A stretch of 64,000 nucleotides of DNA from Terriglobia bacterium. Its GTDB lineage: Bacteria; Acidobacteriota; Terriglobia; UBA7540. The first letter of the stretch is position 1. Each line of letters starts with the position of its first letter. Made by a program: the position numbers and the translations under genes. The notes under the pieces were generated by a model, which saw only the letters and a list, made by a program, of their open reading frames with translations, was not told the origin of the DNA and ran no database searches. The stretch covers positions 2,742-66,741 of the forward strand of contig DASYXZ010000090.1 of the NCBI GenBank assembly GCA_035934315.1. Direction: 5' to 3'. Of this stretch, positions 10,381 to 62,945 are shown piece by piece.

Positions 10381-10422
10381 AGCTTCCTTTTTATGGAGCG
10401 CAGAGAATATATTCGCACAATT

Positions 10423-11898
10423 TTACTCCAGCGAAAATCTTATAACGGCGGCGGAAGCGGCGGGCACCGTGAGGACGGTTTGGCCGACTTTGTCCGACCT
10501 CAGCGGCGTCCATTTCCCTTCCCACGAACCATTGTTAATGGACGCGCCACCGAGCGTCACGCCGGTTTTCGCCTCAAGGTCTCCGCTCGGCGCGGCCAGA
10601 AACATCACCGCGGCGCGCTTCGAAATTCCCTTCGCCACAACGGTCACATTCGCCTGGCGTGCGCCGGGGCCGTGATCCTTGTTGATGATGGTTACAAAAA
10701 GGTTCGCCGCGTCGCGCACGGCGTAGGCGGTCAGATTGATTCCCTCCGGATCGGAAATCGTGAGCCGTTCCACGGTCCCGTGACTGCCCAGAGCAAAGGC
10801 CTTGAGGGCGTAAGCCTTCGGATTGATCTGGAAATTTCCGGAGTGATCAAGAAATATCGTGTCGGTGTAAATCCAACGCTTGTTGTGAAAATTGACGCCC
10901 AGAGCTTGATGCGCAGCATGCCAGTGCATGTAATCCAGCGCCCACAACGCGGAAGCGAAAGCGTTGCTCGCGCCGTTAACTCCACCGGTATAGTCGTTAC
11001 ACTCAGTCATGCGGTAAGGCAACCCGCCCGCTACCACAGGTGCGAGGACGTGATCATAGAGCAGGGTGTAATGGGTCGAGACCCAGCCGGGCGACAGCAT
11101 TGACTCGATGGCTTTCGCAATGCTGACTCCGGTGGCGCTTTGGCCGGAGTAGTCATGCTGGGTGACGAATCTTAAATTCATCTCCTTCGCATCTCGGGCG
11201 AAATGTTCCGTCCAGGAAGCGCCGTTGTAGTCAGTGTCCTTTGTCCCGGGGACGGGGTAATTCGAGCCCGTATCCGGTCCCGTGAGGCATGCCTCAGGAG
11301 CGGCATGGATAATCGCAGTGGCAAACGCCTTCCAGTCCGCCAGGTACGACGGATACGCCGTCCCAGGGACTCCAGGAGTAGTTTCGACGATCTTCGGATC
11401 GCGGGGATGGCCGGGGAAGGTATGAAAGGAATGCCAGTCAGGCTCGTTGCCGATCTCAAAGCAACTGAGTTGACCACTATAATGCTGCTGGATGTAACCG
11501 GCGATTGCGGCAGCGCCGGACGGGCTGCCATTGAGCAGGCGCAAGGTGTAGATCACCTTGACGTCGGCAGCCTTCGCGAACGCGAACAAGTGATCGACAT
11601 CTTCCGGGCCCGGAACTGCGTATTCAGGGCCGTCGGCCGTGCCGCCGCCGACGCGAAGATCCTCAATACCGATCGTCCGGAACAGATCGATGAGCGGCTT
11701 GTTCTCCGCGCTGAAGAGATATCTTCCGTCTTTATCGGGCAGAAGGTTTGCCGTTTCAAAACTCAAACCGATAAAATCAGCCGGGATCGCAAACCCGGGA
11801 GCCCGCGCATCAATCATTAAGGTTATCGGTGACTGCGCCACCGCCGTGCCCGCCCAAATACAGCCGACCAAGACCGAAACTGGAATTCTTTTCGTCAT
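10423..11898 (-). CDS. GH79-like glycoside hydrolase (clan GH-A; beta-glucuronidase-like), secreted
   Basis: 491 aa with signal MTKRIPVSVLVGCIWAGTAVAQ. It has an NEP acid/base-type motif (CFEIGNEPDW) and a nucleophile-type motif (YRMTECNDY), followed by a C-terminal beta-sandwich. Size and motifs resemble bacterial GH79 beta-glucuronidases. Confidence 0.7.
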   Translation of the reverse strand: MTKRIPVSVLVGCIWAGTAVAQSPITLMIDARAPGFAIPADFIGLSFETANLLPDKDGRYLFSAENKPLIDLFRTIGIEDLRVGGGTADGPEYAVPGPEDVDHLFAFAKAADVKVIYTLRLLNGSPSGAAAIAGYIQQHYSGQLSCFEIGNEPDWHSFHTFPGHPRDPKIVETTPGVPGTAYPSYLADWKAFATAIIHAAPEACLTGPDTGSNYPVPGTKDTDYNGASWTEHFARDAKEMNLRFVTQHDYSGQSATGVSIAKAIESMLSPGWVSTHYTLLYDHVLAPVVAGGLPYRMTECNDYTGGVNGASNAFASALWALDYMHWHAAHQALGVNFHNKRWIYTDTIFLDHSGNFQINPKAYALKAFALGSHGTVERLTISDPEGINLTAYAVRDAANLFVTIINKDHGPGARQANVTVVAKGISKRAAVMFLAAPSGDLEAKTGVTLGGASINNGSWEGKWTPLRSDKVGQTVLTVPAASAAVIRFSLE

Positions 11899-11929
11899 TT
11901 CAACCTACTGATCGCGCAAGAACCTGTTC

Positions 11930-11969
11930 TTCGACCGGGAAGAGTTCATCAGACCTCTTCCCGGTCGAA
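11930..11969 (-). terminator. Perfect 15-bp stem hairpin (TTCGACCGGGAAGAG / CTCTTCCCGGTCGAA, 10-nt loop); likely terminator of the upstream receptor transcript
   Basis: Arms at 11930-11944 and 11955-11969 are exactly complementary. The hairpin lies about 20 nt downstream (minus sense) of the stop of the receptor remnant and upstream of the GH79 start. No U-tract follows. Confidence 0.5.
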
Positions 11970-11989
11970 ATTGAAACGCGAACCAGTTT

Positions 11990-12175
11990 TCAGAAATAGA
12001 ACTTGAGAGCCAGTTGCCCGAGCCGAGGATTGTTCCGCAACGACGTTGTTTTCCTGAATCCCTTGAGACTCGTAAAATTGAGTTGACCCGGGTTTCCAAA
12101 TTGTGGTGTTGGGTGATTGTTCGCCAGCCCACACTTCAATCGCCCTTTGAGTTCGAAACCCTGAATGCCGGAAAT
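11990..12175 (-). pseudogene. 3'-terminal remnant (~61 codons) of a fifth TonB-dependent receptor gene
   Basis: Hand translation of the minus strand gives ..FELKGRLKCGLANNHPTPQFGNPGQLNFTSLKGFRKTTSLRNNPRLGQLALKFYF* with stop TGA at 11990-11992. An upstream in-frame TAA sits at 12176-12178. The sequence aligns with the C-termini of the intact receptors here (..NHANFGNP...NPRVLQFALKLVF, ..GGPRIGQLALKLIF), including the terminal aromatic residue. Confidence 0.6.
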
Positions 12176-12340
12176 TTATCGTAATTCGGCGTAAAAATTA
12201 ACCCTCGAGCGCCTTCCCGTTGTCAACCTGCCTGTAGCACTCTAAGGCTGTATTGAGGACGGGTCAAGGCTCGGGCTCGAAGAGCAATCCGCTCCCATGG
12301 CCTCCGAAAAAAATCGTGCCAAACGCAAAGCTATGAGCGA

Positions 12341-15300
12341 TCACCAATACAGCTTGAGCGCCAACTGAATTTCGCGCGGATCGAAGGCGCCGTCCCGAAG
12401 ACTCGAGATTTTGCTGAAAGGCGTGTTGTTAAAATTCAAAAAGCCCGGCTGGCCGAACATCGGCGTATTGGTCAGATTGAAAACCTCGGTTCGGAACTCG
12501 AGGTGAGTCGCCTCCGAGAGGCGAAACTGCTTGAAGAGCGAGAAATCCAGGCGATGGATGCCCGGACCGTAGGCCTGCCGGCTTTGTCCTCCCAAGGGCG
12601 TATAATCGGTCTGCCCAATGATTGTGGCGGCGGGTGGTTGGGCGAACGCCGCCGGGTTGAGCCATTGGTTCACGTCGTGAGGGCCGGAGTACATGTTTTG
12701 GCCCGGCACCAGCAAGGCATTGCAGCCAAAATCAGACGTCGTTCCCTTTGGACAGCCAATGGTGAAAGGTTGGCCACCCTGCTCCGAAAGGACGGCGTTG
12801 ATGCTCCATCCGCCCAGAAGTTGGTTGGCGGCTCCGCTGCTGTGGCTCAGGAACCGCCTGCCGGCACCGAAGGGCAATTGGTAGGATCCCGCCACGTGGA
12901 CGATGTGAGTCACATCGGAACTGCACAAGTGATAATCGCCCTGGATTCCAAACCCAGGGAGATAAGGGGCGCGATTGTTGCCGCCGCCGGCGCCGCCGAC
13001 CAGGGGCTCGTCGTCATCTCTGCACTTGGAATACGTGTAGTCGGCCAAGAGGCTCAGCCCTTGGCTGAGCTGGCGCCGATAAGTGACTTGGAGGGAGTTG
13101 TAATAGCTGGACGCTTGCGTGGTTTCATAGGTTGAACGCCGCAGGAAATCCGGGAACGGCACATATTTTTGGGGGTTCTGTCCCGGGGGCAGAATGATGC
13201 TGGGTTCATTCGCTCCCGTATCGGTGTCGAGATGGCGGCCTCCTGAACCGACGTAGGCGATATCCACCGTCTGGCTCGGCGTAAGTTGATATTGAAGGGT
13301 GAAATTATAGGCCTCCGTATAGGGAGTCAAAAAATTATACTGCCTTGCATTCAGTCCAAGTCCGTTGGCAACCACGTTGGCCGGAGTGAAGCTGATGGCG
13401 GACAAGCCGTTCTCGAGCGTGGCGATCGACCCGTTGGGAAACGTGATTGGCTGATAGGGATTCGGGCTGCTGTATCCAAAGTTGAACAGGAAAGGATAGT
13501 TGCGTCCCAGGTTGGGGCCAAACCCAATATTATCCAAGGCGCCGTAAAAAATACCGTATCCCGCCCGCACCACCAGCTTGGGGAGGAGCTGGTAGGCGAA
13601 GCCAACTCGCGGCGCAAAATTCGTTTTTTGGCCGTTGCCGAGCGTGAGGCCTGACGCGCACTGAAACGCGATGCCGTCGGTTTGGAGAAGCGTCGTAAAC
13701 GAGGTGGATAGAGGTTCATTGCAGCGGCGTTTCGGGAGCAGGAATTCCGCGCTGCCGGGAGCCGCCGGGATAAAGTTACCCTGCGCTCCGTAAGTCTCCC
13801 AGTAGGGTGTGAAATAATCCCACCGCAGCCCCAGATTCAATGTGAGCTTTTGCGAAAGCCTCCAATCGTCGTTGAAGTAAAGGCCGACGTAGTTGCGCTG
13901 GTCGTCCGTGGCGGAGAAGTTTGAGGCCGAGACGTTGTCAGCGCCTCCGACGTTGTTATAGCCGCCGGGAACCGTGGAGGCAACAGGCGTCAAAAGTAAT
14001 TGCGCAATCCCGACGTTGTTTCCGTCCAACTGGTTCGGAACCGAGGTATATGTGCCGGAGAAGCCAAAGTGACCGTGAGACGCGGTAGGCTGGATGATCC
14101 AGGCCCGAATATGATCGAACTGAATACCCGCCTTGATCGTGTGGCGGCCCTTCACCTTGGTGAGGTTCTCGGTCGCGTCGTACACCTGGGTGCGTTGAAT
14201 CGTAGGCGTGAACTGATGTGTTCCCAGTTGTTGCAGTCCCCCAATCGAAATGTTGGGAAGCCCGCCGTTGTTGGGAATTTGAGGGATGCCCTGAATCCCG
14301 AACTGCGCCGGGATCCCCATCGTAGCCGCGGTGGGATTGACATTGATCTCCGGGTTTCTGTTATAGCCAAAGCGCGCCTCATTGATCATCGTCGAAGAAA
14401 ACAAATGAGTCTCGCTGAGGGCCAGAGCGTCGTGTCCAAAGTTGCCGCTGTAACCGTCATTGTTATGGCCGTCGGCGAGGCCCGGAAGGGGGGAGGGGTT
14501 TACAAAGGGGTTGTTCTCCCAATCTACGACCTCGAAAATCTGGTCTTGGGCGGAGAAATTATGGTCGATCCGGGCGTCAAATTGGTTCGAATCGTTCAAA
14601 GTGACCGGGTCATACACGAAGTTTTGTAGAAAACCAGAGCCGGTCGGCGCGGGATACAGATTGAGCAGCTTGATCGCGTTCGGGTCCAGCCGGCCGGCCG
14701 GGAGCATATTGAGCAGGGCAATGGCGGCCGGGCTGGTGAAGTTCATCACGCCGGTCAAACTTCCCTGGTAGAAGGGATCGCGGACCTGCCCCGTTGCCGT
14801 GGCCGGCAAACCTGACAAAGGGTCCGTCTTCCCTTTCGTGACGTTCCGCGTGGTGGCCGGATCAAGAACGGTCCCCAAAGGAAAAGTCCGCCCCAAGTCA
14901 TCGGTCGTCGGCTTGCCAGATTGATCCAGAATCAAGTCCTGCAAGTTGGCATAGCCGCTGTTCCGCATGGTGGCGGTAGGCACGGTCTCCTGGAAAGGAC
15001 TTGCCGAGCGTGTGCGTACGCCCTGCCACTCGAAAAAGAAGAAGGTCTTGTTCCTGCCGTTGTACACATGAGGTATATCGACCGGACCTCCCAGCGTGAA
15101 GCCAAATTGGTTCAGCCGAAATTCCCCTTTTGGGGTTCCCGTGGCGTTTTCAAAGAATTGGGCCGCGTCCAGTTTGTCATTGCGCACAAATTCCCAGGCG
15201 TCGCCGAGAAGGCGATTGGTTCCTGACTTGATGGTGGCATTCACCACGGCGCCGGCCGAGTGCCCAAACTCCGCGCTGTAGTCGTTGGTTTGAACTTTGA

Positions 15301-15976
15301 ACTCCTGGATGGCATCTGGAGGAGGAAGGATTGTGTAATTCTGGCCGGCAAAGAAAAACTCATTGTTGTTGTCGATGCCATTGAGCCGAAAATCGTTCTG
15401 TCCGCCGCGGATTCCATTGGCCGAAAAAGCTCCGCCGGTCTGCGGCGCATTACCCGCTTGCACGGTCACGCCAGCGACAAGCTGAGCGAGTTCCGTCCAA
15501 TTCCTGCCATTCAGCGGCAGGTCGTTGACCTCCGAATTCCCGATGGTTTGCCCGCGCGAAGCGTTTTGGGTTTGCAGAAGGGGCGTGGCCGCCTTGACTT
15601 CGACGGCCTGTGTCACCTTGCCAGGCACCAGCACGAAATCCGCCAGGACGTCTTCCTGCACGTGCACTGGCATGTGGACGCGAGTCGCTCTCCGGAACCC
15701 CTGCAATTGTACGCTCGCGGTGTATGAGCCAATCTTAAGAGCCGGAAAAACATATTGACCGCTGGATCCTGTGATCGTGGTGAGCGTGAAGCCCGTCCCC
15801 TCGTTGGTCAGCGTGACCTTCGCACCAGGGACGACAGCCCCGGAAGAGTCGCGAACCGTTCCAAGAATCCTTCCCGTATCAATCTGCGCTTTGCACAGCG
15901 GATTGCCCGCCACCAGCCAGCAGACCAGCACGGCTCCCAACGCACGAAGCACTCTCGCCACGATTCGATTTCGCAT
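12341..15976 (-). CDS. TonB-dependent outer-membrane receptor with N-terminal carboxypeptidase-regulatory-like domain (receptor 1)
   Basis: The start ATG 15976 (MRNRIVARVLRALGAVLVCWLVAGNPLCKAQ) is preceded by TAAGGAGAAT. It has a CarboxypepD_reg-like segment GTVRDSSGAVVPGAKVTLTNEGTGF...SGQYVFPALKIGSYT and a plug-type segment LPLNGRNWTELAQLVAGV. A long beta-barrel ends in ..REIQLALKLYW. Confidence 0.9.
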   Translation of the reverse strand: MRNRIVARVLRALGAVLVCWLVAGNPLCKAQIDTGRILGTVRDSSGAVVPGAKVTLTNEGTGFTLTTITGSSGQYVFPALKIGSYTASVQLQGFRRATRVHMPVHVQEDVLADFVLVPGKVTQAVEVKAATPLLQTQNASRGQTIGNSEVNDLPLNGRNWTELAQLVAGVTVQAGNAPQTGGAFSANGIRGGQNDFRLNGIDNNNEFFFAGQNYTILPPPDAIQEFKVQTNDYSAEFGHSAGAVVNATIKSGTNRLLGDAWEFVRNDKLDAAQFFENATGTPKGEFRLNQFGFTLGGPVDIPHVYNGRNKTFFFFEWQGVRTRSASPFQETVPTATMRNSGYANLQDLILDQSGKPTTDDLGRTFPLGTVLDPATTRNVTKGKTDPLSGLPATATGQVRDPFYQGSLTGVMNFTSPAAIALLNMLPAGRLDPNAIKLLNLYPAPTGSGFLQNFVYDPVTLNDSNQFDARIDHNFSAQDQIFEVVDWENNPFVNPSPLPGLADGHNNDGYSGNFGHDALALSETHLFSSTMINEARFGYNRNPEINVNPTAATMGIPAQFGIQGIPQIPNNGGLPNISIGGLQQLGTHQFTPTIQRTQVYDATENLTKVKGRHTIKAGIQFDHIRAWIIQPTASHGHFGFSGTYTSVPNQLDGNNVGIAQLLLTPVASTVPGGYNNVGGADNVSASNFSATDDQRNYVGLYFNDDWRLSQKLTLNLGLRWDYFTPYWETYGAQGNFIPAAPGSAEFLLPKRRCNEPLSTSFTTLLQTDGIAFQCASGLTLGNGQKTNFAPRVGFAYQLLPKLVVRAGYGIFYGALDNIGFGPNLGRNYPFLFNFGYSSPNPYQPITFPNGSIATLENGLSAISFTPANVVANGLGLNARQYNFLTPYTEAYNFTLQYQLTPSQTVDIAYVGSGGRHLDTDTGANEPSIILPPGQNPQKYVPFPDFLRRSTYETTQASSYYNSLQVTYRRQLSQGLSLLADYTYSKCRDDDEPLVGGAGGGNNRAPYLPGFGIQGDYHLCSSDVTHIVHVAGSYQLPFGAGRRFLSHSSGAANQLLGGWSINAVLSEQGGQPFTIGCPKGTTSDFGCNALLVPGQNMYSGPHDVNQWLNPAAFAQPPAATIIGQTDYTPLGGQSRQAYGPGIHRLDFSLFKQFRLSEATHLEFRTEVFNLTNTPMFGQPGFLNFNNTPFSKISSLRDGAFDPREIQLALKLYW

Positions 15977-16060
15977 TTGGATTCTCCTTATCGATAGAAA
16001 CGACCGCAAGACCAGGGACGCCAAGGCTCAAACGCGCCAACAATCAGCCAGTGGGGCGAC

Positions 16061-16112
16061 TATAAATAACGTCGAAATTTGGATCTCAAGTGAAATCTGA
16101 TATCTCATATAT
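16061..16112 (-). promoter_or_regulatory. Putative sigma70-type promoter of receptor 1 plus upstream AT-rich TGATAT motif
   Basis: The minus sense reads GATATCAGATTTCAC-TTGAGA-N17-TTTATA. On the plus strand these elements are tctcaa 16084-16089, tataaa 16061-16066 and TGATAT 16098-16103. The region is near-identical to the receptor 2 promoter region. Confidence 0.45.
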
Positions 16113-16591
16113 TTCTCAAGATAAAACATTTAAACATTTTTTTCAATCGCTCGTCCAGGCTCAACCTTCGCAATTGAATGGTCATTTCGCGTCACACTCT
16201 GGCGCGGCGGCTCCCTTGAAGATCTACGTGTTCCAATCAATGCCGGGTCTCTTCGAAAGACACCAGGTGTGAAACGGCATAAGAAGGCCAAATTAAACTT
16301 CCACCGACGCTGCTCGTGACAAACAATATCGTCGTTGCAAGGCCGCCAGGCGACACACTTGCCCGAATCGCACTTTGTCTATCATGACGGAATATATTTG
16401 TCAAGAGCTTTTTTATGACTGTATAATGCACATACGGTCTTTTATATCAACTATTGATTGTTGAGATGAGAGGTTTGCCAGATTCGAAACAAGAAGAAGT
16501 CGCCACAAATCGCTCACCAAAGAGGAAAGTATTTGATTGGTCGTTTAGCAATCTGCTCGATTCTTGATTGGTTCCGCATATAATGGGGGTT

Positions 16592-17392
16592 ATGAGCAGA
16601 AGATCAGATGACACTCGCAACGCCAATTCAAGACCAGACCGGATTCTTCGCCTCCTCCAAGAAACTGGTTTGGTCTCCATCCATCAACTCTGCAACGACC
16701 TGGACGTATCGATTGCCACCGTGCGACGAGACTTACGCCACCTGGAAAACCAGAACCTTTTGCGGAGAACGCACGGAGGCGCGACCTGCATCGAACCACT
16801 GCTTTATGAGCCCTTCCGCCGCGATTCATCTTTCCAAGAGCAGATCGAGCGCTGCTCGGACGAAAAGCGAAAGATCGCTTTGGCTGCGGCCGAATTGGTG
16901 GAAGACGGTGACACAATTGCGATGACTGCAGGAACCACAACCACCCTGGTAGCACGCAGCATCCGGCAGCGGCAAGGAGTAACGGTTGTCACCAACACCG
17001 TCAACATCGCCATGGAATTGAGCAAAAGGAAAGATTTGGCGATTTTTGTCACGGGAGGACACCTTCGCGGTGACTGGTTTTCTCTGGTCGGGTCCGCTGC
17101 GGTCCAAGCCATGACTCGCATATATGTCGAGAAGGTTTTCATTGGGGTGAATGGTATCGATGCTGAGAAAGGCTTGACCTGCTTCAATCCTGAAGAGGCG
17201 GCACTGAACAGGACAATGATCCAGCAGGCCCGGAAAAAGATTGTGGTCGCCGATCACACAAAGTTGGGGCTCGTAACGAGTTGTTTGATTTGTCCTTTGC
17301 GCGAAGCTGATATTCTTATTACTGACAGCGGCGCTACAGATAAGGCAATCGAGCCTTTTGTGCAAAATGGTCTCGAAGTGCGGCGTGTATAA
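16592..17392 (+). CDS. DeoR/GlpR-family transcriptional regulator
   Basis: It has the HTH segment RILRLLQETGLVSIHQLCNDLDVSIATVRRDLRHLENQNLLRRTHGGA followed by a DeoR C-terminal sensor domain. In-frame candidate starts are TTG 16568, ATG 16583 and ATG 16592. I chose 16592 because of the G-rich run upstream. Confidence 0.9.
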   Translation: MSRRSDDTRNANSRPDRILRLLQETGLVSIHQLCNDLDVSIATVRRDLRHLENQNLLRRTHGGATCIEPLLYEPFRRDSSFQEQIERCSDEKRKIALAAAELVEDGDTIAMTAGTTTTLVARSIRQRQGVTVVTNTVNIAMELSKRKDLAIFVTGGHLRGDWFSLVGSAAVQAMTRIYVEKVFIGVNGIDAEKGLTCFNPEEAALNRTMIQQARKKIVVADHTKLGLVTSCLICPLREADILITDSGATDKAIEPFVQNGLEVRRV

Positions 17393-17509
17393 CCAACAAT
17401 TTTAATTGATCGGTCCTCATGCCACATATATTAGTGATTGTTTTAGGCAATATCGCTCACACAAGTCTTGACATTGCTATCGTTTAGGCGGACTATGCGC
17501 AAGGACATA

Positions 17510-18058
17510 ATGCCGATTGAACTCGATCTGAGTACTGCACTCTTAAACGGCAAGGACGTTCGAATGAGAGAGGTTTCTATCCGCGGCCTCGAGCATGTTT
17601 TTCTAAATGAAAAGGCGAGAATAGCGCTCAATCCGTCAACGACAGTCTATCGGGTCCATTATTTTACGCCCGTGCCCGAAGGCACGAGCGGTGGTTTGTT
17701 TTGCGGATTGACGGTCATCCAGCCTGGAATGGTCGATGACGAATACTTCATGACGCGGGGCCACCTGCATGCGAACCGGGAGCGCGGGGAATGTTACTTG
17801 ACCATTGCCGGCGAGGGAGCATTACTGCTCATGGACGAGGGCCGACGAACCTGGTTTGAGGCTATGAAGCCCGGCACCATCCACTACATTCCAGGCCACA
17901 CGGCCCACCGCGTCGCAAATACGGGTCTCACGTCGCTTTCTTTCTTCGCGTGCTGGCCCAGCGATGCCGGCCACGATTACGAAAGTATTGCGAGATGCGG
18001 ATTCAGCGCTCGTCTGCGCAAAATAAATGGACAGCCAAAACTGGTGGAGGCGCCATGA
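17510..18058 (+). CDS. Cupin-type glucose-6-phosphate isomerase (archaeal-type cPGI family)
   Basis: The segments GLTVIQPGMVDDEYFMTRGHLHANRERGECYLTIAGEGALLL..PGTIHYIPGHTAHRVANTGLTSLSFFACWPSDAGHDYESI match the cPGI signature (TxGHxH...E.Y / HR..N / AGHDY). The start ATG 17510 is preceded by AAGGA. ATG 17495 and TTG 17468 are also in frame. Confidence 0.75.
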   Translation: MPIELDLSTALLNGKDVRMREVSIRGLEHVFLNEKARIALNPSTTVYRVHYFTPVPEGTSGGLFCGLTVIQPGMVDDEYFMTRGHLHANRERGECYLTIAGEGALLLMDEGRRTWFEAMKPGTIHYIPGHTAHRVANTGLTSLSFFACWPSDAGHDYESIARCGFSARLRKINGQPKLVEAP

Positions 18059-18996
18059 AGGCTCTCGCTCTGGATCTCGGAGGAGGTCATGCCGCGTGTG
18101 CGGTTGTTGAAGACCGCACTCTAGTTGTCTCCGAGAGAATCGCTTTGCGAGAGTCCACCAACCTCGGTTGTGTGTTGCCTCATGTCACAGAATGCCTGAA
18201 GAGGTTACTACAGGACTGCCGGATGCAGGCCTCTGAGTGCTCGGGCGTCAGCGTTAGTTTCTGCGGCATCGTGTCCCCGTATCCCGCACAAATCCTCTCG
18301 ACGCTGGGGAAGTATGTGGATGGTCCGGGCTTGGATCTCCCTCTCTGGGCGAAGAACGCTTTTGGCATCCCGATGGTAATCGAGAATGACGCGCGCATGG
18401 CGCTGTTAGGTGAATGGTACGCAGGCTCAGTGCAAGGCTTTGAGGATGCCGTGATGATTACGCTCGGTACCGGCATCGGCGGAGCGGCGATGGTTGGGGG
18501 CCGCTTGCTCCGGGGCAAACACTTCCAGGCGGGTTGTTTGGGTGGCCATTTGACGGTCGCTTATGGTGGCCGCGAATGCAAGTGCGGCAACATCGGTTGC
18601 GCGGAGGCGGAAGCGTCTACCTGGGCTCTTCCTGCGATCTGCCGTGAGTGGCCCGGTTTCGAATCCAGCTCTCTGGCGCGCGAAGAGGTAATCGACTTTG
18701 CCATTTTGTTTCGTCACGCTACGGCAGGAGATCGAGTGGCCTGCGAAGTCCGTGACCGATGTTTACGGGTATGGTCCTCGTGCGCCGTATCGATGGCTCA
18801 TGCGTACAGCCCTGAGGTCATTGCATTGGGCGGAGGGGTGCTGGAAAGCGCGTCCGAAATCCTTCCAGTGATCGAGCCCTGGGTGCAAGACCACGTTTGG
18901 TCACCGTGGGGGCTGGTTCAAGTGCGGCGCGCGAAACTAGGTGAGGAAGCCGCACTCTTGGGCGCCGTCCCACTTCTTCAAACTATTCTCAAATGA
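18055..18996 (+). CDS. ROK-family sugar kinase (glucokinase/mannokinase-like)
   Basis: It has MKALALDLGGGH, ENDARMA, LGTGIGGA and the ROK zinc motif GHLTVAYGGRECKCGNIGCAEAE. The start ATG 18055 overlaps the upstream stop in an ATGA (18055-18058). Confidence 0.85.
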   Translation: MKALALDLGGGHAACAVVEDRTLVVSERIALRESTNLGCVLPHVTECLKRLLQDCRMQASECSGVSVSFCGIVSPYPAQILSTLGKYVDGPGLDLPLWAKNAFGIPMVIENDARMALLGEWYAGSVQGFEDAVMITLGTGIGGAAMVGGRLLRGKHFQAGCLGGHLTVAYGGRECKCGNIGCAEAEASTWALPAICREWPGFESSSLAREEVIDFAILFRHATAGDRVACEVRDRCLRVWSSCAVSMAHAYSPEVIALGGGVLESASEILPVIEPWVQDHVWSPWGLVQVRRAKLGEEAALLGAVPLLQTILK

Positions 18997-20750
18997 ACAC
19001 TGTCGCCAATTACGACAAAACGCCGACCATCACAGTGAGTTCAGACCCGTCGGAATGCGCCTTGGGATGGGACGAGGTGGCGGATCGCTTGCGGGGTTTT
19101 CTTCCCGCCGGCCGATGTGTTCTTTGCATTGAAACCTATCCCGGAGTCTTTGAACGCGAAATCGAACAGGCGCTCGCGCGGCGTCTTCGGCCCGTGCAGA
19201 TCCTGCGCTCCCAGTGCTGCTATAAGCCTTCGGCGGAAATTAATCAGATCGCAGCGCCGTTTCTGACGGACGATCCAGTTTTCGGCCGGATGAGCTACCT
19301 TGAGCTCACGGATTATATTGATCCCAATCGTCTCGCCGCCGCCCGCCAAACAGTCAGCGAGTGGTCACGAGGATTGCTGTTGGTGATTGGAACCGGCGCT
19401 GCGGTGATTTCACCAAACGCCGACGTGCTCGTTTACGCTGACCTGGCGCGCTGGGAAATCCAGCAGCGCCAGAGGCGGGGCCAAATCTCCAGTTTGGGCG
19501 TGAACGACGCCGGAGCCAAGCCGTCTGTGCTTTACAAAAGAGGTTTCTTTCTGGATTGGCGTCTCGCCGACAACCTGAAGCGCGCTTTGCTGCCCCGCAT
19601 CAACTTCTTGCTGGATACCAATGACATGCGAACCCCGAAGATAATCAGCGGCGAAGCGCTGCACCGCGCGCTTCGCAAAACGGTCGAGCGCCCGTTCCGC
19701 CTGGTCCCCTTTTTTGATCCTGGTCCATGGGGGGGGCAGTGGATACGAAAGGTCTGCGCGTTGAATGGTGATGCGCCCAACTACGCCTGGTGCTTCGATT
19801 GTGTTCCCGAGGAGAATAGTTTGCTGTTGGGTTTTGGGAATCGACGCATGGAGATTCCTGCGGTTGACCTCGTATTCACTCATCCGCGAGAGCTGCTTGG
19901 GGATGCCGTCCATGCGCGGTTTGGGGCGGAATTTCCCATCCGCTTTGATTTCCTCGATACGATGGACGGGGGAAATCTGTCGCTTCAGGTTCATCCCACT
20001 ACGGAGTACATTCGCAGCCATTTCGGCCTGTACTATACCCAGGATGAAAGCTATTACATTCTTGACGCAGATCAAGGAGCGGCCGTGTATTTGGGATTGA
20101 AGGATGAGGTTAATCCGGAATCCATGTTGCGTGATCTGGAATTGGCTGAAAATCCCGATTGCGCGTTCCCAGCCGATCGGTATGTCAACCAGTTTCCGGC
20201 GCACAAGCACGATCACTTCCTCATTCCCGCGGGGACCGTCCACTGCTCGGGACGGAACTGCATGGTTCTGGAGATTAGCGCCACACCCTACATTTTCACG
20301 TTTAAGCTTTGGGACTGGGGTCGGCTGGGTTTGGATGGAGAGCCACGCCCGATCCATATCGATCACGGCAAAAGAAACATTCAGTGGGATCGGCGCACGC
20401 GGTGGGTGAAGGGAAATCTGTTGAACCAAATCCAACCCCTCAGCTCGGGTGAAGGTTGGTTGGAAGAAAGGACAGGTCTCCACGAGATGGAATTCATTGA
20501 AACGCGGAGGTGCTGGTTTACAGGTAAGATAATCCACCATACTCGTGGTGGAGTGAACGTCCTCAACCTGGTCGAAGGTGATGAAGCGGTTGTGGAGAGC
20601 CCCGGGCACGCGTTTGAACCTTTCGTCGTCCATTACGCCGAAACTTTCGTGGTGCCGGCGGCGGTCGGTCCCTACACCATAACCCCTTTCGGATCTGCGC
20701 AGGGCAAACGATGTGCGACGATCAAAGCCTTTGTCAGGACGAGCGCATGA
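18993..20750 (+). CDS. Class I mannose-6-phosphate isomerase-like cupin protein with ~230-aa N-terminal extension
   Basis: The C-terminal ~350 aa carry PMI-type motifs: PWGGQW, LSLQVHP, YTQDESYYIL, IPAGTVHCSG, VLEISATPYIFTFKLWDWGR. I did not recognise the N-terminal 230 aa. The start overlaps the ROK stop in an ATGA (18993-18996). Confidence 0.75.
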   Translation: MNTVANYDKTPTITVSSDPSECALGWDEVADRLRGFLPAGRCVLCIETYPGVFEREIEQALARRLRPVQILRSQCCYKPSAEINQIAAPFLTDDPVFGRMSYLELTDYIDPNRLAAARQTVSEWSRGLLLVIGTGAAVISPNADVLVYADLARWEIQQRQRRGQISSLGVNDAGAKPSVLYKRGFFLDWRLADNLKRALLPRINFLLDTNDMRTPKIISGEALHRALRKTVERPFRLVPFFDPGPWGGQWIRKVCALNGDAPNYAWCFDCVPEENSLLLGFGNRRMEIPAVDLVFTHPRELLGDAVHARFGAEFPIRFDFLDTMDGGNLSLQVHPTTEYIRSHFGLYYTQDESYYILDADQGAAVYLGLKDEVNPESMLRDLELAENPDCAFPADRYVNQFPAHKHDHFLIPAGTVHCSGRNCMVLEISATPYIFTFKLWDWGRLGLDGEPRPIHIDHGKRNIQWDRRTRWVKGNLLNQIQPLSSGEGWLEERTGLHEMEFIETRRCWFTGKIIHHTRGGVNVLNLVEGDEAVVESPGHAFEPFVVHYAETFVVPAAVGPYTITPFGSAQGKRCATIKAFVRTSA

Positions 20751-21523
20751 GATTTGACCCTGCTCTCGACGTCAAGATTACCCGGCAACCGATGGGTTTC
20801 GAGTACGGCCTCCACGTCTTTGGCCCCAAAACCGAATACCGAAGCCTCGACGCGATCCGATGGGGTTTGTTCAACCCGGCTTGCCAGGGCCCCGATCCTG
20901 TTTACGCCATCGCCATGGGTGTGGGTAAGGAGGACCAACGCGAAGAGCTTTGCCGGCGGAACCTACTGTTTGGAGTTGTCACTTACGCAGCCGGACGGCT
21001 GGGCGGCGAACCGGTGCGAAGCCCGGGGCATCTCCACAAGGTTTCACGCCATAATAATTGTTCTGCCCCGGAGATATTTGAAATCTGGGAGGGGTGCGCA
21101 GTCATTTACATGCAGGAATTCGCGGCCCATAACGCCGGACGTTGTTTTGAGGTAGAAGCGAAAGCCGGAGACGTCGTCGTTGTGCCGCCGGCATGGGCAC
21201 ATGCCGCCATCAGCACCGACCCGACTGACCCGCTGACTTTCGGTGCATGGTGCGACCGTGATTACGGATTTGTGTATGACGAACTGCGAGCTCGGAAAGG
21301 ACTTGCCTGGTATCCAGTTTTGGAGAACGGATCCTTGCAATGGCAAAGGAACACACGATACCAGGAAAGCCGACTCGAGATCGTTGCCGCAAGAACCTAT
21401 CCCGAACTTGGTTTGCCAGGCCGCAAGCCGATTTATGCGCGCTTTGAAGATTCCCCCGAGTCTGTGCAGTGGGTTTCTGAGCCGCAGCTTGTCCGAAGTG
21501 TTTGGCCGCAATTCCATCCATGA
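20747..21523 (+). CDS. Cupin-fold protein, putative second sugar(-phosphate) isomerase related to cPGI
   Basis: The segment SPGHLHKV...PEIFEIWEGCAVIYMQ...AKAGDVVVVPPAWAHAAISTDPTDPLTF has a cupin two-motif layout. The start ATG 20747 overlaps the upstream stop in an ATGA (20747-20750). ATG 20711 is an in-frame alternative. Confidence 0.5.
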   Translation: MRFDPALDVKITRQPMGFEYGLHVFGPKTEYRSLDAIRWGLFNPACQGPDPVYAIAMGVGKEDQREELCRRNLLFGVVTYAAGRLGGEPVRSPGHLHKVSRHNNCSAPEIFEIWEGCAVIYMQEFAAHNAGRCFEVEAKAGDVVVVPPAWAHAAISTDPTDPLTFGAWCDRDYGFVYDELRARKGLAWYPVLENGSLQWQRNTRYQESRLEIVAARTYPELGLPGRKPIYARFEDSPESVQWVSEPQLVRSVWPQFHP

Positions 21524-21542
21524 ATCAGGAGCCAACCCAATC

Positions 21543-22925
21543 GTGAGGCAGGCATCAGCGGTCGAGGGAGATGCGAAGGAAAGAGGAGCACGGACTTACG
21601 TGTATCTGGTCTCGGCGGTGGCAGCGCTGGGAGGTTTGCTTTTCGGTTTTGACACTGCAGTCATCAACGGGGCTATTGTCTTTCTAAGACGAGACTTTCA
21701 CCTTTCGGATTTTCAGACTGAATGGGCCGCCGGCAGTCTACTGCTGGGGTGCGTGATTGGCGCTTTCGCTGGTGGAAGCCTCAGTGATCGGTTGGGAAGG
21801 AAGAAACTCCTTCTGGCCGCCGCGTCGATTTTCGTTCTTTCCGCATTCGGAGCCGCTTTACCGAAAAACCTGGCCGAGTTTATCGCTGCCCGCCTCCTGG
21901 GAGGTCTGGCAATCGGAGTGGTGTCCGCGCTGTCGCCGCTTTACATTGCTGAAATTTCGCCTCCTTCCATTCGCGGCCGCCTTGTCACCCTGAATCAGCT
22001 TGCGATTGTTACGGGCATTCTCTGCGCGTTCTTTATAAACTGGCTTCTTGCCAGTCTCGGCCCTCATAGCTGGCGTTGGATGTTCATGGCCGCTAGTGTG
22101 CCCTCGCTGGTTTTCTTCTTCAGTCTCCTAGCCGTTCCGGAGAGCCCTCGGTGGCTGATCCAACGGTCGAGACTTAAGGAAGCGGTCACCATCCTGAGCT
22201 GGTTATGTGGAGACGAGCAAGCTCCATTGCAAGTCGAGGAGATCCGCAAGACCATCGCGGAGGAACAGGCCTATTCACTGTCAGCACTGCTTCGCCCGCC
22301 GCTCCGCCATCCTACAATGATTGCTGTAACTCTGGCGGTGTTGTCTCAAGTGACGGGAATTAATACCATCATGTATTACGGCTCCGTCATCTTCACCGAA
22401 CAGGTCAAGAGCCAGGGGGCCTTTTCCGCGCTTGGTGCCAACGTGATCATTGGCGCTGTGAACTTCGCCGGAACCATCCTGGCCCTCCTTTTTATTGATC
22501 GGCTCGGCAGAAAGCCGTTGTTGATGTTCTCGGCAGGAGGAATGGGAATTTCCCTCACTGCGATCGGATTCGCCTTTCTGGTCCACCCCGCCCCTTCGAC
22601 CCTGATTCTTGGGCTGATTCTTTCATACGTCGCGTGTTTCGCCGTGGGCCTGGGACCCGGGTCGTGGCTCTTGATGTCTGAATTATTCCCGACTCCGGTT
22701 CGTGGACGCGCCATGTCAATTGCCACGCTCAGTCTTTGGGTGGCCTGCCTGGTTGTCACGCTGACCTTTCTTTCTCTCGTCTCACTCCTGGGAGCTTCCG
22801 AGGCCTTTGGGATATACGCTCTTCTTTGTGCGGTGGCGTTCTTTTTTGTCTGGAAATTCACCCCGGAAACAAAAGGAAAGGCACTCGAACAGATCGAGCG
22901 GCTCTGGGTCGGCCACCAGGGCTGA
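21543..22925 (+). CDS. MFS sugar-porter-family transporter
   Basis: It has GGLLFGFDTAVINGA, LGRKKLLLAAASIF, VPESPRWL and the C-terminal PETKGKALEQIE. The ORF is open from 21243, but that part overlaps the preceding gene. The first plausible start after stop 21523 is GTG 21543, with AGGAG 12 nt upstream. The exact start is uncertain. Confidence 0.85.
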   Translation: MRQASAVEGDAKERGARTYVYLVSAVAALGGLLFGFDTAVINGAIVFLRRDFHLSDFQTEWAAGSLLLGCVIGAFAGGSLSDRLGRKKLLLAAASIFVLSAFGAALPKNLAEFIAARLLGGLAIGVVSALSPLYIAEISPPSIRGRLVTLNQLAIVTGILCAFFINWLLASLGPHSWRWMFMAASVPSLVFFFSLLAVPESPRWLIQRSRLKEAVTILSWLCGDEQAPLQVEEIRKTIAEEQAYSLSALLRPPLRHPTMIAVTLAVLSQVTGINTIMYYGSVIFTEQVKSQGAFSALGANVIIGAVNFAGTILALLFIDRLGRKPLLMFSAGGMGISLTAIGFAFLVHPAPSTLILGLILSYVACFAVGLGPGSWLLMSELFPTPVRGRAMSIATLSLWVACLVVTLTFLSLVSLLGASEAFGIYALLCAVAFFFVWKFTPETKGKALEQIERLWVGHQG

Positions 22926-23181
22926 GGTCCGGCTCGCGTCGTTCACCGACTTGTACGGTCCAGACCTGGCCAAGCTCGAAGTTCGAGCCTTGGTCGATCG
23001 CCCAGATGCTTTGAGAGTTTGTCCCGAAAAACTTGGCGTACTGCTGCTGCGGAAGAGCCGAATGGAGCTCAGCCACGTTGCGGACAAAGATACCTTTGAA
23101 CTGCACCCCGCCGCCACCGCACGAGGCAAGAAAAGAAACGCACAAAACAAGAATGAAGCGCCTTTTGAAAGCGGCTCGCAT
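22858..23181 (-). CDS. Hypothetical small lipoprotein ORF; possibly a remnant (signal peptide fused to a glycosidase C-terminal-like piece)
   Basis: It begins MRAAFKRRFILVLCVSFLASC (lipobox LASC). The following segment FKGIFVRNVAELHSAL..YAKFFGTNSQSIWAIDQG reminds me of the C-terminal end of GH76-type enzymes. There is no clear SD. The 3' end overlaps the convergent MFS gene by 68 nt. Support is weak. Confidence 0.25.
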   Translation of the reverse strand: MRAAFKRRFILVLCVSFLASCGGGGVQFKGIFVRNVAELHSALPQQQYAKFFGTNSQSIWAIDQGSNFELGQVWTVQVGERREPDLSPGGRPRAARSVRVPFLLFPG

Positions 23182-23194
23182 CTGCGGTCGATGC

Positions 23195-23224
23195 GGAAGG
23201 GGCGATTCGTGAATCGCCCCTTCC
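23195..23224 (-). terminator. GC-rich perfect palindrome GGAAGGGGCGATTC..GAATCGCCCCTTCC immediately downstream of receptor 2
   Basis: This 30-nt palindrome starts 7 nt beyond the receptor 2 stop (23231-23233). It has no U-tract and is a possible factor-independent terminator or RNA-stability hairpin. Confidence 0.45.
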
Positions 23225-23230
23225 GCAATG

Positions 23231-26917: not shown

Positions 26918-26996
26918 TTGGATTCTCCTTATCCGATAGAAATGACCTCGAGGCCCGCGACGCAAACGCACCTACACTCCAACATTCAATGCGGCG

Positions 26997-27047
26997 ATTA
27001 TAGGTGTCGAAATGGGCGTGTCAAGTGAAATTTGATATCTGAAATTC
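26997..27047 (-). promoter_or_regulatory. Near-consensus sigma70 promoter of receptor 2 with upstream TGATAT motif
   Basis: The minus sense reads GATATCAAATTTCAC-TTGACA-N16-TATAAT. On the plus strand these elements are tgtcaa 27019-27024, attata 26997-27002 and TGATAT 27033-27038. This places the transcription start about 75-80 nt upstream of ATG 26917. Confidence 0.55.
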
Positions 27048-39793: not shown

Positions 39794-40027
39794 AAAATAC
39801 CTCCTTGAATTTCGCTGCTGCCCCTGAAAAAAAGTGTCGGCATCTGTATTCCTTAACCATCCTTGCCCAAGTAAGCGCGCGTTCAGGCCCAATATCCGAC
39901 GCAGATTTGCAGTAGTCGCGCCCCCGTCAGAATTCTGTGAAACTCACTGGGGGTTGCGTCCAAGAGGTGCTCAGCCGCGGATCGCATTACGGTTGACCTT
40001 GAAAAGTTTGATTCCTTAATCCCGCCA

Positions 40028-40083
40028 AGCTTATCGAAATGAAGATCGCATTGTCAAGCACAAAATGATATGTTAGATATCAT
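40028..40083 (-). promoter_or_regulatory. Putative promoter of receptor 3 with a perfect palindrome ATGATAT-N5-ATATCAT upstream of the -35
   Basis: The minus sense reads ATGATATCTAACATATCAT-TTTGTGC-TTGACA-N18-TAAGCT. On the plus strand these elements are tgtcaa 40052-40057 and the palindrome 40065-40083. The TGATAT-to--35 phasing is the same as at receptors 1 and 2. Confidence 0.45.
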
Positions 40084-40185
40084 ATTCGAGGAAAGCCACC
40101 ATGAGATAGCTCTAGTCAACGTGAAGGATGAGCATCGCGTCTGAACTGGCTGGCCCCGGCTTTTTGCTGGTCCCCCTTGACGCGC

Positions 40186-41457: not shown

Positions 41458-41487
41458 GTTAAGCCAATTCTCCGGTATGGATTGTAA

Positions 41488-41553
41488 GGCCGGGGCTTGC
41501 CCCGGCTATAGGATTATGTCCCCAGCGCAGGATGGCCGGGGCAAGTCCCCGCC
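41488..41553. repeat. Pair of GC-rich inverted motifs (GGCCGGGGCTTGCCCCGGC / GGCCGGGGCAAGTCCCCGCC) able to form a long hairpin in the MFS/GH3 divergent region
   Basis: Copy 1 at 41488-41506 is itself palindromic. Copy 2 at 41534-41553 is its near reverse complement, and the two are separated by about 27 nt. Confidence 0.4.
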
Positions 41554-41607
41554 TTCCAATCGCCGGAGCCAACGCCCGTCCAACTGAGGAAATAGATTCT
41601 CACGCAG

Positions 41608-41642
41608 TGTGATATGTTATATATTATTTTGCTCCCGTCAAG
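41608..41642. promoter_or_regulatory. TGATAT-type motif overlapping a candidate promoter in the divergent MFS / GH3 control region
   Basis: The plus strand reads TGTGATATGTTATATATTAT (41608-41627). The minus sense reads TTGACG-N16-TAACAT, with ATATCA falling at the -10 region of the MFS-directed promoter. On the plus strand, TAGAAT at about 41653-41658 could serve GH3. Confidence 0.35.
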
Positions 41643-56134: not shown

Positions 56135-56163
56135 TTGACTTTCACTAATATCTGATATACGTT
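56135..56163 (+). promoter_or_regulatory. Candidate promoter of the split UxaA-family operon, with the TGATAT motif inside the spacer/-10 region
   Basis: TTGACT lies at 56135-56140, followed by TTCACTAATATCTGATATACG. The motif ATATCTGATATAC occupies 56148-56160, and the -10 candidates are GATATA/TATACG. The site lies in a 396-nt divergent intergenic region. Confidence 0.35.
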
Positions 56164-56522: not shown

Positions 56523-56527
56523 GAAAA

Positions 56528-62621: not shown

Positions 62622-62923
62622 CTTTGAAGTAGATCCAAACATTGCCTGCCGCCTCGGAGAAAGTACGAAGAAGGGTCATCGATCACCTAAAAAAATGAAA
62701 TTGGATTCAGCCCGGCAAAAGGTCTCACAAAACAGTGGGGCTCCCCGCCTTAAGCAGGTCTGGAAAAGTTCTGAAAAAAGTTCCAGGGCCACCATGTCTT
62801 AAGGCGACCCTGGAAATCGGGCCAGCGCATCCCACCTCTGGAAGGAGAGGCAATCTGCTTGCGGAGCTGGCATGGGCGTTCGATCATGGGCCCGTTTTGA
62901 TGAATATAATGTTCCGGGATGAG

Positions 62924-62945
62924 ATTTGATATATAGTACTGATAC
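62924..62945 (+). promoter_or_regulatory. TGATAT-type AT-rich motif upstream of the GntR gene (candidate operator)
   Basis: The sequence ATTTGATATATAGTACTGATAC lies about 55-75 nt upstream of the TTG start at 62998. Confidence 0.3.

What the first reader, a model, noticed from the sequence alone, without database searches (positions are those of the whole stretch)
16061..16112. Recurring AT-rich TGATAT(C/G)T-N-ATAT motif with fixed phasing to the -35 box at all four TonB-receptor promoters, and in other control regions of the window
Seen in sequence (plus-strand coordinates): seven instances occur. They are TGAAATCTGATATCTCATATAT (16091-16112), TGAAATTTGATATCTGAAATTC (27026-27047), ATGATATGTTAGATATCAT (40065-40083, a perfect 7-N5-7 palindrome), TGTGATATGTTATATATTAT (41608-41627), TTGGTATCTTATATATTA (53009-53026), ATATCTGATATAC (56148-56160) and ATTTGATATATAGTACTGATAC (62924-62945). 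At the four receptor genes, TGATAT/TGGTAT starts 14, 14, 14 and 15 nt from the start of the complement of a TTGACA/TTGAGA box. That places it just upstream of the -35 in the sense orientation. A further conserved ATTTCGA(C/T) lies inside the spacer at receptors 1-3. At the ExuT-like MFS gene and at the split-UxaA operon the same core instead overlaps the spacer/-10 region. In about 58% GC DNA these sites stand out. The pattern fits a shared transcription-factor site, activator-like at the receptors and repressor-like elsewhere, that links the receptors, the transporter, the sulfonate-like cluster and the GntR gene. Which regulator binds (the GntR at 62998, the DeoR at 16592, or one outside the window) cannot be told.
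Basis: seen in the sequence. Interest (0 to 1): 0.65.

Follow-up and report, generated by a model that had tools for sequence, protein, structure and literature searches.

The report
Shared 14-bp operator at sugar-uptake promoters
A sharply bounded 14-base AT-rich sequence recurs far more often than chance at the promoters of four outer-membrane sugar receptors and three other sugar-use operons of an uncultured soil acidobacterium; it is most likely the docking site of one unidentified regulator, which is a sound but ordinary kind of finding.

Summary
All seven strings are exact and the 14/14/14/15-nt phasing to the -35 box is correct. The motif is best written on the sense strand as TATATNA-SATAYCA, with information content confined to those 14 positions.

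It matches 7 intergenic loci at two or fewer mismatches, against 0.5 expected in AT-matched shuffles. A consensus built from the four receptor sites alone recovers the MFS/GH3 and UxaA sites (0.005 expected). About 820 kb of other Acidobacteria contain one hit. In close relatives (85-93% identical) 67 of 70 motif columns are invariant, against 66% of other intergenic columns (p=5e-9). An eighth site lies just beyond the window.

A shared transcription-factor operator is the best reading (about 0.55). It sits at roughly -57 to -44 at the receptors and over the -10/start region at three divergent promoters and at the GntR gene.

The activator/repressor split is inferred from position only. R2 has a perfect consensus promoter, which argues against activator dependence. 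The regulator is unidentified. The FCD-type GntR is the leading candidate by neighbourhood, but the site does not fit the FadR-type consensus.

Part of the receptor phasing reflects common ancestry of the promoters. R2 and the GntR site are weak matches. This is a new regulon motif of a known kind.

The parts
16098..16111 (-). R1 site, TATATGAGATATCA (0 mismatches). It lies 8 nt upstream of the -35 box TTGAGA (16084-16089).
   Evidence: identical in L094
16071..16078 (-). ATTTCGAC element inside the R1 promoter spacer
27033..27046 (-). R2 site, AATTTCAGATATCA (2 mismatches). The proximal heptad AGATATCA is invariant in three lineages. It lies 8 nt upstream of the -35 box.
26997..27024 (-). R2 core promoter TTGACA-16-TATAAT (12/12 match) with ATTTCGAC (27006-27013) in the spacer. 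The -35 TTGAC, ATTTCGAC and TATAATCGCC are invariant in orthologues while the spacer flanks vary.
40066..40082 (.). R3 site, TGATATGTTAGATATCA. It is two overlapping 14-mers (1 mismatch each) on opposite strands that form a 17-bp palindrome, 8 nt upstream of the -35 box TTGACA (40052-40057). ATTTCGAT lies at 40033-40040.
   Evidence: identical in L095/L096
53010..53023 (-). R4 site, TATATAAGATACCA (0 mismatches), 9 nt upstream of TTGACA (52995-53000). It lies inside a 29-nt block that is invariant in L099/L100, next to a flank that is about 60% identical.
41610..41623 (-). M site, TATATAACATATCA (0 mismatches), in the divergent MFS (minus strand) / GH3 (plus strand) region. It overlaps the predicted spacer/-10 of TTGACG-16-TAACAT and TTGAAA-17-AATAAT (minus strand) and of TTCTCA-17-TATATT (plus strand).
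   Evidence: (44-nt invariant block)
56146..56159 (-). U site, TATATCAGATATTA (1 mismatch), between two facing TTGAC boxes (56134-56139 plus strand, 56170-56175 minus strand) of the divergent UxaA and amidohydrolase operons. It covers both predicted -10 regions.
   Evidence: (about 70-nt conserved block)
62920..62933 (-). G site, TATATCAAATCTCA (2 mismatches, weak), just downstream of a TATAAT at 62906-62911 and ahead of the FCD-type GntR gene (62998-63705). Predicted position is about +2 to +15.

Best explanation
The 14-bp element TATATNA-SATAYCA is the operator of one sequence-specific DNA-binding regulator. Its SATAYCA heptad faces the downstream gene at seven of eight sites; the site ahead of the GntR gene is the exception. 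The regulator belongs to this Terriglobia lineage and ties together several carbohydrate-uptake and catabolism units.

Shown:
- The element is discrete, strongly enriched, confined to promoter regions and conserved in relatives.
- It occupies two positional classes.

Inferred, class 1. At the four TonB-dependent receptor genes it ends 8-9 nt upstream of a consensus-like -35 box. That puts it at about -57 to -44, centred near -50 to -52 of the predicted starts.

Inferred, class 2. At the MFS/GH3 and UxaA/amidohydrolase divergent promoters, and at a PFK/MFS-IlvD region just beyond the window in a relative, it lies over the spacer/-10 region. At the GntR gene it lies just downstream of a TATAAT, at about +2 to +15. 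At all four the bound protein would block RNA polymerase, which is repression.

At the receptors the same protein either contacts or blocks the polymerase alpha subunit from the upstream position. Whether that activates or represses is not decided by the data.

The FCD-type GntR at 62998 is the leading candidate by neighbourhood. I put this at about 0.25; it is not shown.
For: - Enrichment: 10 matches against 0.72 expected. Five and seven loci against 0.035 and 0.48 in AT-matched block shuffles.
- Hold-out: the consensus of the receptor sites recovers M and U at 0.005 expected.
- Background: one hit at <=1 mismatch in about 820 kb of other acidobacterial TonB-receptor loci. Every other hit in 1.07 Mb is an orthologous site in a close relative, or the new site L101:9918 TATATCAGATATCA.
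- Shape: information content is confined to 14 positions with flat flanks. The G/C positions (S8, C13) are among the conserved ones, which argues for base-specific reading rather than general AT-richness.
- Purifying selection: 67 of 70 motif columns are invariant against 953 of 1450 other intergenic columns, Fisher p=5e-9 (alignments).
- Phasing at the receptors is fixed at 14/14/14/15 nt.
- Precedent for one regulator repressing from promoter-overlapping sites and activating from an upstream site: C. glutamicum GntR1/2, whose site is centred at -60 at ptsG (PMC2230225).
- Three of the eight sites (U, G and the L101 site) lie within about 7 kb of the GntR gene. GntR orthologues occur in the same samples as motif-bearing relatives.
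Against: - No binding or transcript data exist. Every promoter is a consensus prediction, and consensus scans find no more promoter-like sites than shuffles do.
- The motif was defined from the same sites it is counted at; only the hold-out test escapes this.
- The receptor sites are partly homologous rather than independent.
- The comparators for R1 and R3 are 99-100% identical and carry no information.
- The motif matches no recalled operator consensus better than shuffles: FadR-type, HutC-type, AgaR, DeoR, Fur, CRP, NanR.
- It is absent from the more distant relatives sampled, whose DeoR is 66-71% identical.
- At R4 a 1-nt indel in the spacer in relatives makes the -35/-10 pairing there doubtful.
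Confidence: 0.55

Rival explanations
1. The element is a promoter feature read by RNA polymerase itself, with no dedicated regulator. At the receptors it would act as an UP-like AT-rich element contacted by the alpha C-terminal domains. At the divergent regions the same-looking sequence would simply be overlapping -10 hexamers of facing promoters.
For: At the receptors the element plus the T-rich 8-9-nt linker fills about -57 to -37, which is the UP-element position. At U, M and the L101 site, -10-like hexamers (GATATT, TAACAT/TATATT, TATATC) lie inside the 14-mer at 16-17 nt from -35-like boxes. R2 is a perfect consensus promoter that needs no activator.
Against: The fit to the E. coli UP consensus is no better than for shuffled sequence. 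The conserved positions include G/C, and information stops sharply at 14 bp. Generic -10 or UP composition does not produce the 14-mer: there is one hit in about 820 kb of other acidobacterial promoter-rich loci. A consensus built from upstream-of-minus-35 sites also finds the -10-overlapping sites, which would be a coincidence under this reading.
Confidence: 0.2
2. The receptor instances are shared ancestry only. On this reading promoter-leader cassettes were copied between paralogous receptor genes by duplication or gene conversion, and the fixed phasing says nothing about function.
For: R1 and R2 upstream regions are 74% identical over 135 nt, from promoter to start codon, although the proteins are 31% identical. 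R3/R4 are 77.5% identical over 49 nt and R1/R4 73% over 48 nt. Receptor units are gained or lost between close relatives: R3 and its promoter are absent from L092/L093, and the R1-DeoR segment is absent from its position in L097/L103.
Against: M, U, G and the L101 site share nothing with the receptor promoters beyond the 14-mer. Within R2 and R4 orthologues the motif is invariant while adjacent intergenic DNA diverges. Proteins at 31-35% identity imply that unconstrained promoter DNA would have been randomised unless it was copied recently.
Confidence: 0.1
3. The element is specifically the operator of the neighbouring AgaR-like DeoR regulator (16583-17392).
For: The DeoR gene lies divergent to R1, about 490 nt from the R1 site. 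DeoR-family proteins often bind tandem repeats (my recollection, not tested).
Against: DeoR's own strong promoter (TTGTCA-18-TATAAT) and leader carry no 14-mer at <=2 mismatches. There is no fit to the AgaR or E. coli DeoR consensus. Relatives L097/L103 keep the motif at R2 although the DeoR-R1 segment is missing from that location. Seven of the eight sites are far from the gene.
Confidence: 0.07

Closest known systems
Dual-function FadR-subfamily GntR regulators, e.g. Corynebacterium glutamicum GntR1/GntR2 (PMC2230225)
   Same: One regulator has sites over the promoter or start of sugar-acid catabolic genes, where it represses, and an upstream site (centred at -60 at ptsG) at an uptake gene, where it activates. 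A FadR/FCD-type GntR gene lies beside three of the eight sites here. The ATAT-N3-ATAT core has the same 4-N3-4 geometry as TNGT-N3-ACNA.
   Different: The defining GT...AC bases are absent: sites have 2-3 mismatches out of 6, no better than shuffles. The element is oriented rather than clearly dyad-symmetric. Binding was not tested. The targets here are TonB-dependent receptors of an acidobacterium.
UP element of sigma-70 promoters (rrnB P1 type)
   Same: An AT-rich block immediately upstream of a consensus -35 box, at about -57 to -37, at strongly predicted promoters.
   Different: It does not fit the A-tract/T-tract consensus. It has conserved G/C positions and a sharp 14-bp boundary. It also occurs over -10 regions.
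Regulation of carbohydrate TonB-receptor loci: CUT loci of Xanthomonas (PMC1790865) and PULs of Bacteroidota
   Same: TonB-dependent receptors are clustered with glycoside hydrolases, sulfatases and inner-membrane transporters, and have promoter-proximal cis elements.
   Different: From my own knowledge, those systems typically use a locus-specific regulator: LacI, GntR or AraC types, SusR, hybrid two-component systems, or ECF sigma/anti-sigma pairs. Other Terriglobia receptor promoters sampled here show what look by eye like LacI-type operators. Here one motif spans four receptor loci with different enzyme sets, which suggests a shared, higher-level regulator.

Membership tests
FadR-subfamily GntR operator | Match to consensus 5'-TNGTNNNACNA-3' (Rigali et al., as cited in PMC11472048 and PMC2230225) | tested here: not met
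   The best match at each of the 8 sites has 2-3 mismatches out of 6 specified bases (mean 2.38). Composition-matched shuffles give 1.93.
FadR-subfamily GntR operator | Dyad of two 4-bp half-sites separated by 3 bp | tested here: inconclusive
   Positions 2-12 read ATAT-N3-ATAT. Because ATAT is self-complementary, a dyad and a tandem 7-bp repeat cannot be told apart. The flanks (5' T, 3' CA) are asymmetric.
FadR-subfamily GntR operator | Autoregulatory site at the regulator's own promoter, and sites at adjacent catabolic operons | tested here: inconclusive
   The G site (2 mismatches) lies just downstream of a TATAAT ahead of the GntR gene, in a block conserved in relatives. The U and L101 sites flank the gene. 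No binding data exist.
DeoR/AgaR-type operator | Match to the AgaR consensus WRMMTTTCRTTTYRTTTYNYTTKK or the E. coli DeoR palindrome TGTTAGAATTCTAACA (both recalled from memory) | tested here: not met
   Mean mismatches are 8.4 of 23 (AgaR) and 7.6 of 16 (DeoR), against 8.8 and 7.5 for shuffles. There is no 14-mer in the DeoR promoter or leader.
UP element | AT-rich block at -57 to -38 upstream of a -35 box | tested here: met
   At R1-R4 the 14-mer ends 8-9 nt before TTGA(C/G)A and the linker is T-rich. The position is relative to predicted promoters only.
UP element | Match to consensus AAAWWTWTTTTNNNAAA (recalled from memory), with no requirement for G/C | tested here: not met
   Mean mismatches are 4.62, against 4.66 for shuffles. 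Conserved S at position 8 and C at position 13.
Sigma-70 promoter | -35 and -10 hexamers separated by 16-18 nt | tested here: inconclusive
   R2 matches 12/12 and is conserved. R1, R3 and R4 have a good -35 but weak or ambiguous -10 hexamers, and the R4 spacer has a 1-nt indel in relatives. The scans find no excess of promoter-like sites over shuffles.
Sigma-70 promoter | Mapped transcription start | not testable with these tools
   No transcript data are available.
Fur box / CRP site | Match to GATAATGATAATCATTATC or TGTGA-N6-TCACA (both recalled from memory) | tested here: not met
   Fur: 8.6 of 19 mismatches against 9.1 for shuffles. CRP: 3.6 of 10 against 4.4.

The most novel reading that the evidence does not exclude
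The oriented 14-bp element is the operator of a lineage-specific global carbohydrate regulator. It co-ordinates several otherwise independent TonB-receptor (PUL-like) loci in Terriglobia, acting from about -50 at the receptor promoters and as a classical repressor at the divergent catabolic promoters. It travels with promoter-receptor-terminator cassettes that are gained and lost between close relatives, so new uptake units join the regulon ready-wired.
Probability: 0.3. Interest if true: 0.55.

Novelty: new member of a known kind. Interest (0 to 1): 0.35.

Why it matters
I found no published regulon or operator for Acidobacteria in the two literature searches run here, although their genomes are rich in very large TonB-dependent receptors. 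A well-bounded, testable operator shared by four receptor loci and their catabolic partners would give an entry point for several experiments: DAP-seq with two local regulators, reporter mutagenesis, and regulon prediction in MAGs. These could show how such soil bacteria co-ordinate polysaccharide uptake. The motif also hints that, in this lineage, receptor loci answer to a common regulator rather than only to locus-specific ones. It remains a motif prediction without binding or transcript data.

Tried and rejected
1. Conservation across the phylum. Eighty TonB-receptor loci from other Acidobacteriota (best match 52% identical to R1) lack the module. By eye, several of their promoters carry LacI-type operators instead. 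The motif is therefore lineage-specific, and the source genome is not in the species-representative set.

2. Metagenome scan with the composite module pattern. It returned only four hits, all in 22-29% GC contigs (three human-gut or similar assemblies sharing one sequence, one other), and I treat them as chance matches.

3. Orthologues through the search for homologous proteins. The search timed out for R1, the MFS, the GH79-like protein and the GFO protein. It worked for DeoR, but the best non-self hits (61-71% identical) sit in different gene contexts and carry no motif.

4. Close relatives were reached through 90%-identity cluster members instead. The R1 and R3 comparators proved 99-100% identical and uninformative. 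No R1 comparator from a more distant lineage exists, because that lineage lacks the segment.

5. The 17-bp palindrome model TGATAT-N5-ATATCA gives 5 matches against 0.77 expected. It fits only R3 well, so I replaced it with the oriented 14-mer.

6. Structured RNA in the conserved R1/R2 leader. There are no Rfam hits and no tRNAs in the window.

7. GC-rich hairpins as repeated mobile elements. Each one is unique.

8. Literature. No paper links Acidobacteria, TonB-dependent receptors and such a motif. The 'TGATATCA' hits in the one paper opened were primers with EcoRV sites; the other listed hits were not opened.

9. Known operator consensus sequences do not fit.

Full report
CONTEXT. The window is about 57% GC. 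It encodes four very large TonB-dependent receptors (CarboxypepD_reg + OMP_b-brl_4), all on the minus strand:
- R1: 12341-15976
- R2: 23231-26917
- R3: 36293 to about 39.7 kb
- R4: 49646-52930

Around them lie glycoside hydrolases (GH2, GH3, GH27, GH42, a GH79-like protein), sulfatase/anSME genes, GFO/GMC oxidoreductases, MFS transporters and a split UxaA-type dehydratase operon. There are two regulators: an AgaR-like DeoR (16583-17392) and an FCD-type GntR (62998-63705). Close relatives are named 'Terriglobia bacterium' MAGs. The source is an 81.8-kb NCBI contig. Its genome is not among the species representatives, where the best receptor match is 52% identical.

THE OBSERVATION. All seven strings are exact. 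The 14/14/14/15-nt offsets to the -35 complement are correct. On the sense strand of the receptors, the four promoters read:
- R1: TATATGA GATATCA gatttcac TTGAGA
- R2: AATTTCA GATATCA aatttcac TTGACA
- R3: TATCTAA CATATCA ttttgtgc TTGACA
- R4: TATATAA GATACCA atttttagc TTGACA

ATTTCGA(C/T) sits in the spacer of R1-R3. The other three instances fit the same 14-mer in the same orientation:
- M: 41610, TATATAACATATCA
- U: 56146, TATATCAGATATTA
- G: 62920, TATATCAAATCTCA

When the eight sites are aligned (the seven above plus one from a relative, described below), information content is confined to exactly these 14 positions and the flanks are flat. The R3 'palindrome' is two overlapping 14-mers on opposite strands.

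IS IT MORE THAN CHANCE? TATATNASATAYCA at <=2 mismatches gives 10 matches against 0.72 expected, and 9 of the 10 are intergenic. Shuffling intergenic DNA in 20-50-nt blocks keeps AT-rich patches in place. These shuffles give 0.035 loci at <=1 mismatch (observed 5) and 0.48 at <=2 mismatches (observed 7).

Because the pattern was derived from these same sites, I ran a hold-out test. The consensus of the four receptor sites alone finds M and U at 1 mismatch (0.005 expected) and G at 2 mismatches among the other 25 intergenic regions.

Across 1.07 Mb of fetched loci, about 820 kb of other acidobacterial receptor loci hold one hit at <=1 mismatch. Every other hit is an orthologous site in a close relative, or a new perfect site, L101:9918 TATATCAGATATCA. 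That site lies between a PFK gene and an MFS/IlvD-Edd operon about 4 kb downstream of the GntR gene, beyond the end of the window. R2 and G are individually weak, with 2 mismatches each.

COMPARATIVE EVIDENCE. Relatives 85-93% identical were reached through cluster members.
- R2, three lineages: AGATATCA, TTGAC, ATTTCGAC and TATAATCGCC are invariant while the neighbouring spacer and leader positions vary.
- R4: the 29-nt block CGAATCTAATATATAAGATACCAATTTTT is invariant beside a flank about 60% identical. A 1-nt indel falls in the putative spacer.
- M: a 44-nt invariant block holds TTGACG, the spacer and the 14-mer.
- U: a block of about 70 nt with two facing TTGAC boxes and the central 14-mer is conserved amid large indels.
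- G: a block of about 60 nt that includes a TATAAT is conserved.

Pooled, 67 of 70 motif columns are invariant against 953 of 1450 other intergenic columns (p=5e-9). The comparators for R1 and R3 were 99-100% identical and uninformative.

INDEPENDENCE OF THE RECEPTOR SITES. R1 and R2 upstream regions are 74% identical over 135 nt, from the promoter through the leader and ribosome-binding site to the first codons. The proteins are only 31% identical. R3/R4 share 77.5% over 49 nt and R1/R4 share 73% over 48 nt.

Receptor units are also variable between close relatives. L092 and L093 have MFS directly followed by GH2, without R3 and its promoter. L097 and L103 have R2-GH76-GH38-GMC where the window has the DeoR operon and R1. 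R1, R2 and R4 are each followed by a unique strong hairpin.

So the fixed phasing is partly inherited. It is retained under constraint, or spread by recent copying of promoter cassettes.

MECHANISM. The evidence favours a discrete protein-binding site (about 0.55) over generic promoter composition:
- the 14-bp boundary is sharp;
- G/C positions are conserved;
- the hold-out test succeeds;
- the 14-mer is nearly absent from comparable DNA of other Acidobacteria.

Two positional classes exist. At the receptors the element spans about -57 to -44 of the predicted starts. At M, U and the L101 site it lies 10-17 nt downstream of a -35-like box, over the -10 region. At M and U, and by gene arrangement at the L101 site, this is the centre of a divergent promoter pair. 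At G it lies at about +2 to +15. All of these are repressor-type positions.

Whether the receptor sites activate or repress cannot be told. A published precedent for a dual role is C. glutamicum GntR1/2 (PMC2230225). Against activation, R2 is a perfect, conserved consensus promoter.

An UP-like, polymerase-only reading keeps about 0.2. The position fits, but the consensus does not.

WHICH REGULATOR? This is unresolved. The FCD-GntR is favoured by neighbourhood: U, G and the L101 site flank it, and its orthologues occur in the same samples as motif-bearing relatives. But the element lacks the GT...AC signature of FadR-type operators. The protein itself is a generic FCD member. DeoR is less likely: its own promoter carries no site, and relatives keep the motif at R2 although the DeoR-R1 segment is missing from that location. 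A regulator encoded outside the window remains fully possible.

VERDICT. This is a real, lineage-specific cis-regulatory motif of an ordinary kind. It is a good candidate regulon operator, with the regulator and the sign of regulation still open. Interest 0.35.

Noticed in passing
window 15977-16110 vs 26918-27045: The R1 and R2 upstream regions are 74% identical over 135 nt. The similarity covers the promoter, the 5' leader, the ribosome-binding region TTTCTATCGGATAAGGAGAATCCAAATG and the first ~12 codons (MRNR...RVLR), although the proteins are only 31% identical. This points to gene conversion, cassette copying or strong constraint on the leader.
   Followed up: partly
window 36293-40185 vs L092:11291-11347 and L093:2119-2340: R3 with its promoter is absent between MFS and GH2 in two close relatives, so it is a presence/absence polymorphism of a whole promoter-receptor unit. 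The boundaries could not be resolved cleanly.
   Followed up: partly
window 10381-23230 vs L097:9688-15687 and L103:1-9010: In related lineages R2 is followed by GH76 and a 1679-aa GH38, then the GMC oxidoreductase. In the window that slot holds the DeoR sugar operon, R1 and a GH79-like gene, so a segment has been replaced.
   Followed up: no
window 41480-41561: A GC-rich imperfect hairpin of about 82 nt lies in the MFS leader. The 73-nt stretch that contains it is absent from L092/L093. The hairpin is unique within all fetched DNA.
   Followed up: partly
window 11930-11969, 23192-23227, 49457-49537: A long, near-perfect hairpin lies directly after each of R1, R2 and R4. The R2 hairpin is conserved in relatives. 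These look like terminators or attenuators that make each receptor its own transcription unit.
   Followed up: partly
window 53121-54482 (+) and 53190-54137 (-): The 453-aa plus-strand ORF has no family hits and is probably spurious. The minus-strand 315-aa ORF is an epimerase-like TIM-barrel gene. In L099/L100 most of it is deleted, leaving a conserved C-terminal remnant upstream of R4.
   Followed up: partly
window 39595-39895: A strong Shine-Dalgarno sequence plus ATG (CAAGGAGGTATTTTATG) opens a reading frame 66 codons upstream of, and in frame with, the R3 signal peptide. It is either an odd N-terminal extension or a leader ORF. Gene callers disagree (1100 vs 1166 aa in relatives).
   Followed up: no
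window 16392-16460: DeoR has a near-consensus promoter, ATATAT-TTGTCA-18-TATAAT, followed by the inverted repeat ATCAA-CTA-TTGAT in the leader. The repeat is a candidate DeoR auto-operator and is distinct from the 14-mer. The string TGTCAAGA(G/C)CTTTTTTA recurs at 56170-56186.
   Followed up: no
L001, L004-L007, L009, L012, L021, L026 (upstream of the receptor genes): TonB-receptor promoters of other Terriglobia carry sequences that look by eye like LacI-type palindromes (e.g. TTAAGCGGTTAA, GTAAACGTTTAC) downstream of TTGACA boxes. If so, regulation there is locus-specific, in contrast to the shared motif here.
   Followed up: no
window 56244-57691: The UxaA-type dehydratase is split into a 92-aa SAF-domain ORF and a 391-aa ORF that overlap by a few bases. 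The 92-aa ORF recurs as a separate gene in relatives, so the split is probably a genuine two-gene arrangement rather than a frameshift.
   Followed up: partly
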